Below are positions 6,001 to 9,000 of a stretch of DNA of 17,650 nucleotides, one piece after another. Location of the stretch: IMG/VR virus record IMGVR_UViG_2540341031_000012; one strand, written 5' to 3'. Position 1 is the first letter of the stretch. Every line of letters starts with the position of its first letter. Made by a program: the position numbers. Origin of the DNA: a virus (Duplodnaviria > Heunggongvirae > Uroviricota > Caudoviricetes).

Positions 6001-9000
6001 ACGTAGCCCTGATGCCCGGTGGTGTTGGCGAGCGGATTTTCCTGTACCAGAATGCTCAGATGCATTGCCCGGACAAGCGCCTCACAGGTTTCATTCAGGG
6101 CGTGTTCCAGCTCATGCTCTGCATACAGACTCAGAAGGTGATGATGTGCCTTCCGGTAGGCGGTGGCCGTGCTGTCACACGCCCCTTTCAGGCGTTCACG
6201 TTCGAAATTCAGCACCACGGCCAGATTGTCATATTCCTGTACCAGCTCCCGGCGTGCCACGCGCTCAATGTGGCGCTGTTTCAGCTCGTCGCTCAGGACA
6301 CCACCGGCTGCACGAAAGGCCGTGCGCCAGTCGTCAGCGTCGTTTCCGTCGGCCTGCGTCAGCGCATTTTTTTCCTGCTTTGCCCGTTCAATGGCCGTGA
6401 CGGTCTCATCCATCAGGCGGGCGTTCTCAAGGTGGGCGGCTCTGGCCTTTTCCAGTTGTGCCAGTGCGGGTTGCAGATATTCAGGGATGGTGTTGTCAGA
6501 CATTTTCCGGCTCCTCGTCACTTCAGGTTGAGAAAATTGTGACGTACACCGGACAACAACACGACGCATTGCAGATGTGCCAGCCCTGACACAGGAGACT
6601 CATCCTCAGACCGGCAAGCCAGGAAAAGGTCGCAGGAAAAACCGGCTTACTGTTTGTTTTTTTATATTTTACTGTTCACCTCTGTTCACCTTAAGAAAAA
6701 AGATAAGTAATACAGTAAGTTAAAGGGTGAACAATCGCAGTAATGACTGTTCACCGTCTGTTCACCACTGTTCACCCGCTCATGGACTTTTTGTGCTGTT
6801 TACTACTGTTTATTTTTATTAATTCACTGAAATAAATAAGAAAAAACAATTTGTATTTCACTATAAAAAATTCCAAGTCCTTCAGAACCCTTTGAGACCC
6901 TTCCAGTCCGGATGAATAAAAAATATACAGTCATTGTAAGGCAGCCTGAACAAATCCCCCCTGTTGCGTCTGCCAAAAATATTCACAAAATAAAGCGCTA
7001 CCCGAAGCCGGACGGACTTATCCGGTGCTGTATGGACATTAACGAGGTAGCCCGATGCAAGCTGTTTTTTCTTCCCCGTCTCCTGCCCCTGTGACGCCAC
7101 TGATGCCGCTGCCGGACATCACGCAGGAGCGTTTTTTACGTCTGCCGGAAGTGATGCACCTGTGCGGCCTGTCACGCTCGACCATCTATGAACTCATCCG
7201 TAAGGGGGAATTTCCGCCGCAGGTGAGCCTTGGCGGTAAAAATGTGGCCTGGCTGCACTCTGAAGTCACTGCATGGATGGCCGGGCGCATTGCCGGACGC
7301 AAACGGGGGTACGACGCATGATGATGCCCGCTCTGCAAAAAGTCCCTTTTTCTGGCTTGCCTTTTTCCGGCATTTGCGGATATAGTTTTTCCGCTGCCGC
7401 AAAATCGGCAGCCGGGCGTGAGAACCCGAGCAATCTAACGGCGACATATGACGCGCCATGCGTCTTTTTTTGTGTCGCAATCAACGCCACAGAGCGCCAG
7501 ATTATGGTGTGGTGTGTGGTCAGTCGTGCAGATGGCACTCCGTGCATCCTGCCCGCGTCCGCTCATTATGCCGCAGAGTCAATGGTAGCTCAGGCGGGGC
7601 AGCCTCCGGGCTGGCCGGTATCCGTTAGAGCCGGTATTCTCACCCCCGTCTGGGCTATCGCCATCGAGCGTGAGAACTCCGGCGATAGCGTAACCTGCTA
7701 TCTAACGGAGGCTGCCATCATGGCTACAACCCTTACCCCCTCATACCCTGAATTTGTCTTTGTGTTTGCCGCTGTCCGTCGCGCAGACCGCCATCCCCGT
7801 ATCTGTATGCTTCGCACCGTCGCCGGTGATGAACGCAGCGCCCGCCGTTCCCTTGTCCGTGACTATGTGCTCTCCCTTGCTGCCCGTCTGCCGGTTGTGG
7901 AGGTGTCCCGTGCGTAATAAAAAAGCCCCTCAGACCGTCTCAGCGCGTCATGACGCCCGTGAACACCTCAGCATTGAGGCTTACCATAAGCTCAACCGCG
8001 CCAGCGCCGTATCCCAGTTTGTTGGGGGTGATTTGATTCACCGTGAACTCTCCGGCCTGCATCAGCTCTACATTCCGCATATTTTCAGTTACCTGAATGA
8101 AGATATTGATTTTGTGCTGAATGAACTGAAAGCCAAAGGCCTGTGCCGCGATTTTCTCGCCCAGCAGAAAGACCGGGGAGACAGGACGCATGTTTGATTT
8201 TCCCCAGCCCGGTGAGATTTACCGTTCTGCCGGTTTTCCCGATGTGGCCGTGGTCGGCATTCTGGAAGACGGTATTCCGTGGGAAATGCCGTACCGCTGC
8301 CCGGAAATTGTCTGGAACCCGTACCGCCGTAAATTCAGTATCCTTGTGCGTATCCTCGCCGACGGGCGCACCACAGACATCCCGCTGGGGCGTTTTCTGC
8401 GGGAATTTACCTGTGACCGTCCTGACCTGTTTAAACGCAGCCCCGTAAACCGGCATGCGGTACTGAAAGAAATGGCCGGAGACCCGGAATTACAGAAATG
8501 GCGGGAGAAATATCTGGATATTTACCCGCAGGACACTGTTCCGGCCAGCCGGGCGGCACCGGTGGCGCGGGAATGGCGGGAAATTCCCCGCACGGAGCCT
8601 GACCCGGAAATCACCCCGGATAACAGTTACCGCAATTATCTGTAATTAAAAAACGACACCCGAAAAATTAAATGTGCGTATTCGCGCAGGGATACGCACG
8701 TCTTCAGGAGACGCAGATATGCCTTATCAGTTAATGCAACCGGCACGGAATGCAGTCATCTGTCACAGGGAGGAAAGCAAATGAAAACACCCTTACCGCC
8801 CGTCTTACGCGCTGCCCTTTACCGTCGCGCTGTCGCCTGTGCCTGGCTGACCGTGTGCGAACGTCAGCACCGCTACCCGCATCTCACCCTTGAATCACTG
8901 GAGGCGGCCATCGCCGCTGAGCTGGAAGGCTTTTATCTGCGCCAGCACGGTGAGGAAAAAGGGCGTCAGATAGCCTGTGCCCTGCTGGAAGATTTAATGG

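What the first reader, a model, noticed from the sequence alone, without database searches (positions are those of the whole stretch)
6576..6952. Two TGT-N12-ACA dyads flank the iteron cluster in the divergent sid / alpA intergenic region
TGTGCCAGCCCTGACACA (6576-6593) lies upstream of sid, and TGTAAGGCAGCCTGAACA (6935-6952) lies upstream of the AlpA/Vis-like gene. Both fit the Ogr/Delta activator-site consensus of P2/P4 late promoters, implying helper-activated divergent late promoters. The iterons (6673-6776) sit between them, so replication-protein binding and late transcription control may interact.
Basis: partly seen in the sequence, partly recalled or inferred. Interest (0 to 1): 0.35.

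Follow-up and report, generated by a model that had tools for sequence, protein, structure and literature searches.

The report
Phage P4 late promoters and origin
The two dyads are the already well-studied activator-binding sites of the two divergent late promoters (Psid and PLL) of satellite phage P4, which flank its replication origin, here in a P4-type prophage next to the tmRNA gene, so the finding is correct but ordinary.

Summary
Window 4462-11795 is 97.8% identical to satellite phage P4, and the sid/vis intergenic region is 93% identical. The sid-side dyad is base-for-base that of P4. The vis-side dyad differs by one spacer base. The iterons are P4's annotated ori type-1 repeats.

Each dyad lies 45-46 bp upstream of a CAnAAT -10-like hexamer. 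That puts the dyad centres about 55 bp from the predicted starts (~6529 on the minus strand, ~6998 on the plus strand). The P2 reference record gives the same geometry for its four Ogr-dependent late promoters.

Among diverged P4-like satellites, 46 of 52 distinct loci keep one exact dyad 87-108 nt upstream of sid, with at least a dozen different spacers. The vis-side dyad is conserved only in some clades.

Nothing supports crosstalk between iteron binding and late transcription.

Verdict: a correct rediscovery of known P4 biology.

One by-product may be new. The 47-bp stretch where P4 carries P2 Cox boxes (6866-6912) is a discrete allelic cassette, and this window's allele has no P2 Cox box.

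The parts
5769..6503 (-). sid (244 aa), first gene of the sid-delta-psu late operon
   Evidence: Colinear with the P4 sid CDS. delta (5272-5772) matches Pfam Ogr_Delta and psu (4626-5198) matches Pfam Psu.
6529..6529 (-). predicted Psid transcription start: the A of a conserved TCA, 55.5 nt from the dyad centre
   Evidence: Inferred from geometry. Not measured here.
6536..6541 (-). Psid -10-like hexamer CACAAT
   Evidence: CAnAAT sits at a fixed 46 bp from the dyad centre in 29 distinct satellite promoters, with no indels in between.
6538..6555 (.). third exact TGT-N12-ACA dyad, centred about -17.5 of Psid and overlapping the -10; probably the second Delta site of Psid
   Evidence: Identical in P4. 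Unchanged in all 86 P4-clade sequences. In the other clades only the left arm (GTTGT) is kept. Its identity as the '-18 site' rests on my memory of Julien & Calendar 1995, which is not held in the library.
6576..6593 (.). Psid activator (Delta/Ogr) site, TGT-N12-ACA, centred about -55.5
   Evidence: Identical in P4. The arms are kept in 46 of 52 distinct diverged loci, at -87 to -108 from the sid ATG, with 12 or more different spacers. In sid orientation it shares its first 8 bases (TGTGTCAG) with the P2 PO/PP activator site.
6673..6776 (.). P4 ori type-1 iterons, 6 x TGTTCACC (five on +, one on -)
   Evidence: Annotated as 'ori type 1 repeat' in X51522.
6866..6912 (.). variable cassette at the position of P4's ori type-2 repeats, which are P2 Cox boxes; here it is 3-4 phased 10-bp repeats RYCCTTYNAG
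   Evidence: 26/47 identical to P4, against 350/363 and 135/142 in the flanks. There are three discrete alleles among 86 close relatives. P4 has TTAAASNCM boxes here and the window has none.
6935..6952 (.). PLL activator (Delta/Ogr) site, TGT-N12-ACA, centred about -55
   Evidence: One spacer difference from P4. The arms are kept in 85 of 86 close relatives while the spacer shows 9 variants. An exact dyad sits at the same -120 from the vis ATG, with unrelated spacers, in clade L100-L103.
6986..6991 (+). PLL -10-like hexamer CAAAAT; predicted start near 6998
   Evidence: Lies 45 bp from the dyad centre, inside the block AAAATATTCACAAAATA that is conserved across the family. The choice of hexamer is an inference.
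7055..7321 (+). vis / orf88 (AlpA-family HTH), first gene downstream of PLL
   Evidence: Pfam Phage_AlpA, 7e-21. Colinear with P4 ORF88.

Best explanation
The window carries a P4-type satellite prophage integrated beside ssrA. The sid/vis intergenic region (6504-7054) is P4's late-control and origin region. Two divergent, activator-dependent promoters each carry a TGT-N12-ACA site centred about 55 bp upstream of the start: Psid (leftward; sid-delta-psu) and PLL (rightward; vis and the replication/immunity operon). The small zinc-finger activators bind these sites as dimers or tandem domains and recruit RNA polymerase to promoters that have a -10-like hexamer but no usable -35. The activators are the satellite's own two-domain Delta, or Ogr from a P2-like helper. 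Helper infection or satellite derepression therefore switches on capsid-size redirection (Sid, Psu), more Delta, and PLL transcription. Psid has a second dyad overlapping its -10. The six TGTTCACC iterons between the promoters are the ori sites bound by the alpha primase-helicase. Shown here: orthology to P4, the geometry, conservation, and presence of the activator gene. Inferred: the start sites, actual binding, and activation.
For: Window 4462-11795 is 97.8% identical to P4 4291-11624, and 6400-7100 is 93.4% identical to P4 8985-9686. The P4 record annotates the ori and its type-1 and type-2 repeats here, between sid and ORF88. The Psid dyad and the third dyad are identical in P4, and the PLL dyad differs at one spacer base. 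The surrounding genes are Ogr_Delta, Psu, AlpA, Ash, DUF5375 and a primase-helicase. Delta is two Ogr-like halves. The P2 RefSeq record annotates activator sites and start sites, and the distance from site centre to start is 55.5 nt (PO and PP, which share one site) and 57.5 nt (PF, PV). The window dyads lie 46 and 45 bp from CAnAAT hexamers, which gives the same geometry. No complete sigma-70 promoter is found in 6480-7080. In 46 of 52 distinct diverged satellites (Sid 27-66% identical) one exact dyad sits 87-108 nt upstream of sid, with varied spacers and an invariant distance to the -10. Among close relatives the PLL dyad arms stay constant while the spacer varies. Literature held here: Delta is an Ogr homologue and both activate P2 and P4 late genes (PMC8628076); P2 late promoters carry TGT-N12-ACA and depend on Ogr (PMC3931495).
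Against: No transcription start, footprint or activation was measured for this sequence. The primary P4 promoter papers (Julien & Calendar 1995, Reiter et al. 1998, Van Bokkelen et al. 1991) are not held, so the -55 and -18 footprints are cited from memory. The PLL dyad is not an exact N12 dyad in most diverged clades, which show N11/N13-like TGTTGT...CTACA or nothing recognisable. The most distant Sid clade (L145-L150) has CGT-N12-ACA / TGT-N10-ACA shifted by about 5 bp. P2's own annotated sites are TGT-N12-CCA or N11 rather than the exact pattern, so the 'consensus' is loose.
Confidence: 0.9

Rival explanations
1. The dyads are chance matches to a six-base pattern and have no function.
For: Across the whole window the pattern is not enriched: 6 matches against 4.49 expected, and 59 of 200 shuffles reach 6.
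Against: Three matches fall in a 551-nt intergenic region (P about 0.001). The position and arms are kept while the spacers change, both in diverged satellites and in close relatives. The spacing to the -10 is fixed.
Confidence: 0.02
2. The dyads are bound mainly by a protein other than Delta/Ogr, such as Vis/AlpA, helper Cox or IHF, and the match to the activator consensus is coincidental.
For: Vis and P2 Cox are reported to act in this region (PMC3936717; the Vis part is from memory of Polo et al. 1996). Binding was not tested here.
Against: The Psid site shares TGTGTCAG with the annotated P2 PO/PP activator site and has the same -55 geometry. The Cox boxes are a separate element 25-70 bp upstream of the PLL dyad. 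The dyad co-occurs with a delta gene in the satellites.
Confidence: 0.04
3. Only the Psid dyad is a major activator site. The PLL dyad is a weak or clade-specific accessory, and PLL is driven mainly by its own -35-like/-10 elements and by helper Cox.
For: The exact dyad upstream of vis is present only in the P4 clade and in L100-L103. A TTGTTGC -35-like element and the -10 block are conserved throughout the family.
Against: Three unrelated spacers (TGTAAGGCAGCCTGAACA, TGTCCCGTGCTTTGTACA, TGTGCCATGCCTCATACA) occupy the same -120 position. The arms are unchanged in 85 of 86 close relatives despite 9 spacer variants. From memory, P4 PLL is Delta/Ogr-activated and footprinted.
Confidence: 0.1
4. 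Alpha bound at the iterons modulates the two late promoters, or transcription from them modulates ori firing.
For: Only the layout: the ori lies between the two promoters, and that layout is conserved, with the intergenic region 530-573 bp long across the family.
Against: The iterons (6673-6776) overlap no promoter element. They lie about 144-247 bp upstream of the predicted Psid start and about 222-325 bp upstream of the predicted PLL start. I found nothing in the data or the held literature that bears on an interaction.
Confidence: 0.1

Closest known systems
Satellite phage P4 late promoters Psid and PLL flanking ori (X51522 / NC_001609, about 8985-9686)
   Same: Orthologous at 93% identity. 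It has the same gene order (psu-delta-sid | ori | vis...alpha-crr), the same three dyads and the same six iterons.
   Different: One spacer base differs in the PLL dyad. The 47-bp Cox-box/type-2-repeat segment is replaced by a different allele. The element sits at ssrA, and the segments on the integrase side (window 1064-4461) and beyond crr (11796 onward) have no match in P4.
Phage P2 Ogr-dependent late promoters PP, PO, PV and PF
   Same: An activator site centred 55.5-57.5 nt from the annotated start, a -10-like hexamer and no good -35. The left half-site TGTGTCAG is shared with Psid.
   Different: P2's sites are imperfect (TGT-N12-CCA or N11). PO and PP share one site, with starts 111 bp apart. 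Here each promoter has its own site, the predicted starts are about 469 bp apart, and an origin lies between them.
P2 Cox-box array upstream of P4 PLL (TTAAA(G/C)NC(A/C); PMC3936717)
   Same: Same position, immediately upstream of the PLL dyad, and the same 10-bp phased direct repeats.
   Different: The window has no box matching the consensus. Its repeats read CTNRAAGGRY on the minus strand.

Membership tests
P2/P4-type Ogr/Delta-dependent late promoter | Dyad TGT-N12-ACA upstream of the promoter | tested here: met
   Exact matches at 6576-6593 and 6935-6952, plus 6538-6555.
P2/P4-type Ogr/Delta-dependent late promoter | Fixed geometry: dyad centre about 45 bp from a -10-like hexamer, so about -55 from the start | tested here: met
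   46 bp (Psid) and 45 bp (PLL) to CAnAAT. The spacing is invariant in 29 distinct satellite Psid sequences. In the P2 record the centre-to-start distance is 55.5-57.5 nt.
P2/P4-type Ogr/Delta-dependent late promoter | Measured transcription start that places the site at about -55 | not testable with these tools
   The starts (~6529 on the minus strand, ~6998 on the plus strand) are inferred only.
P2/P4-type Ogr/Delta-dependent late promoter | No functional sigma-70 -35/-10 pair (activator-dependent) | tested here: met
   The consensus scan finds 0 promoter-like sites in 6480-7080. This is a weak test.
P2/P4-type Ogr/Delta-dependent late promoter | A cognate Ogr/Delta zinc-finger activator is encoded by the element or its helper | tested here: met
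   The delta gene at 5272-5772 matches Pfam Ogr_Delta at 6.7e-22 over two stretches. Both halves align to P2 Ogr.
P2/P4-type Ogr/Delta-dependent late promoter | Transcription depends on Delta/Ogr, and the activator footprints the dyad | not testable with these tools
   Known for P4 from the literature, partly from memory. Not measured for this sequence.
P4 Psid/PLL (orthology) | Sequence and synteny orthologous to P4 8985-9686 | tested here: met
   93.4% identity over 701 nt and 97.8% over 7.3 kb.
P4-type replication origin | A cluster of type-1 iterons TGTTCACC, with an alpha primase-helicase gene and a crr in cis | tested here: met
   Six iterons at 6673-6776 and five at 11501-11763. The alpha gene is at 9116-11458. 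The P4 record annotates the same features.
P2 Cox-responsive PLL upstream region | Several P2 cox-boxes, TTAAA(G/C)NC(A/C), upstream of PLL | tested here: not met
   No match in 6504-7054. P4 has two exact boxes and one near-match at the homologous place.

The most novel reading that the evidence does not exclude
The 47-bp segment between the origin and the PLL activator site (6866-6912) may be an exchangeable helper-specificity cassette. In P4 it holds P2 Cox boxes. Here, and in about a quarter of close relatives, a different set of phased repeats (CTNRAAGGRY) replaces them. These repeats resemble the 12-nt CCTAGAARGGAC repeats of the Wphi Pe-Pc region. Satellites would then be tuned to be derepressed by different helper Cox types. 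Wphi Cox is reported not to activate P4.
Probability: 0.3. Interest if true: 0.5.

Novelty: already known. Interest (0 to 1): 0.12.

Why it matters
For the finding as stated it matters little. It re-identifies P4's Psid and PLL activator sites and ori in a P4-type prophage, which helps annotation but is not new biology. The comparative data add two modest points. First, the Psid site and its spacing to the -10 are a near-universal feature of P4-like satellites, whereas the PLL site is not. Second, the Cox-box position is an allelic cassette. If the cassette matches helper Cox types, it would explain how satellites specialise on different P2-like helpers.

Tried and rejected
- The primary P4 promoter papers and reviews (PMC177091, PMC107552, PMC207153, PMC372931, PMC3518693, PMC4836473) are not held. 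Full-text searches for Psid found nothing useful.
- The first two viral-contig scans were dominated by near-identical sid genes. Putting a diverged Sid first in the alignment gave the diverse set.
- The exact TGT-N12-ACA pattern does not pick up P2's own annotated activator sites, so exact-pattern counting is a poor general detector.
- The test linking cassette alleles to helper Cox regions by shared 6-mers is weak. The window allele against Wphi gives 9 shared 6-mers against 2.6 expected (p about 0.011, uncorrected for 30 comparisons). The positive control, P4 allele against P2, fails.
- The Wphi 12-mer with up to 3 mismatches is not enriched in the window: 7 matches against 17 expected, and only one lies in the cassette.
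- The terminator-like hit at 6726-6755 is simply two inverted iterons.

Full report
**Observation**

- The two 18-mers are at the stated coordinates: TGTGCCAGCCCTGACACA at 6576-6593 and TGTAAGGCAGCCTGAACA at 6935-6952.
- The pattern specifies only six bases. The whole window has 6 matches against 4.49 expected, so the pattern alone means little.
- Three of the six matches lie in the 551-nt sid/vis intergenic region. Dinucleotide shuffles of that region give a mean of 0.24 and P(>=3) = 0.0012.
- The six TGTTCACC iterons at 6673-6776 are real. The window has 13 copies against 0.64 expected, and five of the others lie downstream of the primase gene at 11501-11763.

**What the region is**

- Window 4462-11795 is 97.8% identical to satellite phage P4 (X51522 4291-11624, reversed). 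Positions 6400-7100 are 93.4% identical to P4 8985-9686.
- The P4 record annotates this stretch as the origin of replication. It shows six 'ori type 1 repeats' and three 'ori type 2 repeats' between sid and ORF88.
- The pairwise alignment shows that the sid-side dyad and the third dyad are identical in P4. The vis-side dyad differs at one spacer base, G for A.
- The surrounding genes match P4:
  - psu (4626-5198, Pfam Psu)
  - delta (5272-5772, Ogr_Delta, two domains)
  - sid (5769-6503)
  - vis/orf88 (7055-7321, AlpA family)
  - an Ash-family ORF
  - orf151
  - DUF5375 (orf106 in the P4 record)
  - the alpha primase-helicase (9116-11458)
- Both halves of Delta align to P2 Ogr.
- Rfam finds the C4-type antisense RNA and its target family downstream of vis, where P4's RNA immunity region lies.
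- The element sits next to smpB and the tmRNA gene.

**Geometry**

- The P2 reference record annotates the activator-binding sites and transcription starts of its four late promoters.
- Anchoring on the 18-mer, the site centre is 55.5 nt from the start for PO and PP, which share one site, and 57.5 nt for PF and PV.
- In the window, the sid-side dyad centre (6584.5) is 46 bp from a CACAAT hexamer at 6541-6536 on the minus strand. It is 55.5 nt from the A of a conserved TCA at 6529.
- The vis-side dyad centre (6943.5) is 45 bp from CAAAAT at 6986-6991, which predicts a start near 6998.
- Read in sid orientation, the Psid dyad begins TGTGTCAG, the same eight bases as the P2 PO/PP site.
- A consensus scan finds no complete sigma-70 promoter anywhere in 6480-7080. 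That fits activator-dependent promoters, though the test is weak.
- The third dyad is centred about 17.5 nt upstream of the predicted Psid start and overlaps the -10.
- From memory of Julien & Calendar (J Bacteriol 1995), Delta footprints sites at about -55 in all six P2 and P4 late promoters and a second site at about -18 in the P4 promoters. That paper is not in the library, so this point rests on recall.

**Comparative evidence**

- The region occurs in 1069 of 5426 complete E. coli genomes, mostly at 91-100% identity, with a minority at 60-80%.
- I aligned 91 sequences: the window, P4, E. coli loci and IMG/VR contigs.
  - The Psid dyad arms never change in true homologues.
  - The third dyad is unchanged in all 86 P4-clade sequences.
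  - The PLL dyad keeps TGTAAG...GAACA in 85 of 86 close relatives while its spacer shows nine variants.
- I then collected diverged P4-like satellites whose Sid is only 27-66% identical.
  - In 46 of 52 distinct loci, exactly one exact dyad sits 87-108 nt upstream of the sid ATG. The window's is at 90. At least a dozen different spacers occur.
  - Anchored on the dyad, 29 distinct promoters align without a single indel down to a conserved CAGAAT/CACAAT hexamer and a conserved TCA.
  - The six exceptions, the most distant clade, have CGT-N12-ACA / TGT-N10-ACA shifted by about 5 bp.
- The vis-side site is less general. An exact dyad at -120 from the vis ATG is found in the P4 clade and in clade L100-L103, with unrelated spacers. 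Other clades show TGTTGT...CTACA with N11/N13 spacing, or nothing recognisable. Meanwhile the -10 block AAAATATTCACAAAATA and a TTGTTGC element are conserved throughout.

**Mechanism**

- The best explanation is the known P4 one. Delta, or Ogr from a P2-like helper, binds the dyads and activates Psid (sid-delta-psu) and PLL (vis and the leftward operon).
- The alpha protein binds the iterons of ori and crr.
- Literature held here states that Delta is an Ogr homologue and that both activate P2 and P4 late genes (PMC8628076). It also states that P2 late promoters carry TGT-N12-ACA and depend on Ogr (PMC3931495).
- Orthology, geometry, conservation and the presence of the activator gene are shown here. 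Start sites, binding and activation are inferred.
The iterons lie about 144-247 bp upstream of the predicted Psid start and about 222-325 bp upstream of the predicted PLL start, and they overlap no promoter element.

**By-product: a variable cassette at the Cox-box position**

- The only part of the intergenic region that differs sharply from P4 is 6866-6912. It is 26/47 identical to P4, against 350/363 and 135/142 in the flanks.
- In P4 this stretch is the 'ori type 2 repeats'. On the minus strand they read TTAAAGCCA and TTAAAGTCA, plus TTAAAGCAA. That matches the P2 Cox-box consensus TTAAA(G/C)NC(A/C) (consensus from PMC3936717). The same paper places the P2 Cox binding site upstream of PLL.
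- The window has no such box in the intergenic region. Instead it has three or four phased 10-bp repeats, RYCCTTYNAG.
- Among 86 close relatives there are three discrete alleles: P4-type in 39, a second type in 27, and the window type in 20. Diverged clades carry further versions.
- Wphi Cox is reported not to activate P4, not to bind P2 Cox boxes, and to recognise a 12-nt direct repeat (PMC5009727).
- The Wphi Pe-Pc region contains CCTAGAAAGGAC and CCTAGAAGGGAC plus further AAGGG boxes. These resemble the window repeats read on the minus strand (ACTGGAAGGGTC, TCTCAAAGGGTT, TCTGAAGGAC).
- The statistical support is weak, and the k-mer test fails its own positive control; details are under 'Tried and rejected'. 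This is a lead, not a result.

**Verdict**

- It is a rediscovery of one of the best-characterised regulatory regions of satellite phage P4, so novelty is nil and interest is low.
- The comparative results on Psid and the allelic Cox-box cassette are the only parts that go beyond what I know to be described.

Noticed in passing
window 6538-6555: A third exact TGT-N12-ACA dyad overlaps the Psid -10. It is identical in P4 and unchanged in the P4 clade. In other clades only its left arm (GTTGT) is kept and the right arm reads CAG.
   Followed up: yes
window 6866-6912: A discrete allelic cassette sits where P4 has P2 Cox boxes (its ori type-2 repeats). There are three alleles among 86 close relatives. 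The window allele has no P2 Cox box and loosely resembles the Wphi Cox repeats.
   Followed up: partly
L092 (P2) 3057-3087, 10239-10266, 17555-17583: P2's own annotated activator sites do not match the exact TGT-N12-ACA pattern; they read TGT-N12-CCA or have N11 spacing. The P4 sites fit the 'consensus' better than the helper's own sites do.
   Followed up: yes
L095-L144, upstream of vis: Many diverged P4-like satellites lack an exact dyad upstream of vis. Some have TGTTGT...CTACA with N11/N13 spacing, similar to P2 PV, and one group has nothing recognisable and a CATAAT -10.
   Followed up: partly
window 1-2465: The layout is smpB (1-483), tmRNA gene (698-1060), then a tyrosine integrase (1245-2465). 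The satellite is therefore integrated next to ssrA. The integrase-side segment (1064-4461) has no match in P4 by megablast.
   Followed up: partly
window 2785-4092 (-): A 435-aa ORF lies between the integrase and psu, a position reported as a defence hotspot in P4-like satellites. It has no Pfam or PADLOC hit.
   Followed up: partly
window 12109-15493 (-): An AIDA/Ag43-like autotransporter lies just beyond the P4-homologous part. It is split into a 1009-aa ORF with 12 AIDA repeats and a separate 108-aa beta-domain fragment, so it is possibly a pseudogene. A DUF5507/DUF5508 protein follows at 16277-17650.
   Followed up: no
window 7380-7665: Rfam finds C4 antisense RNA (7578-7665), its a1/b1 target family (7380-7432) and isrK (7393-7470). 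These lie in the position of P4's CI RNA immunity region, downstream of vis.
   Followed up: no
window 6726-6755: Iterons 3 and 4 are inverted and form an 11-pair hairpin. The scan flagged it as terminator-like on the minus strand, in the middle of the origin.
   Followed up: no
L094 1526-1771; L093 1785-2471: One diverged E. coli satellite has a single-domain (81 aa) Ogr/Delta protein instead of the two-domain Delta seen here. In another, an IS100 insertion abuts the sid gene (228 aa) and no delta or psu is annotated in the fetched stretch.
   Followed up: no
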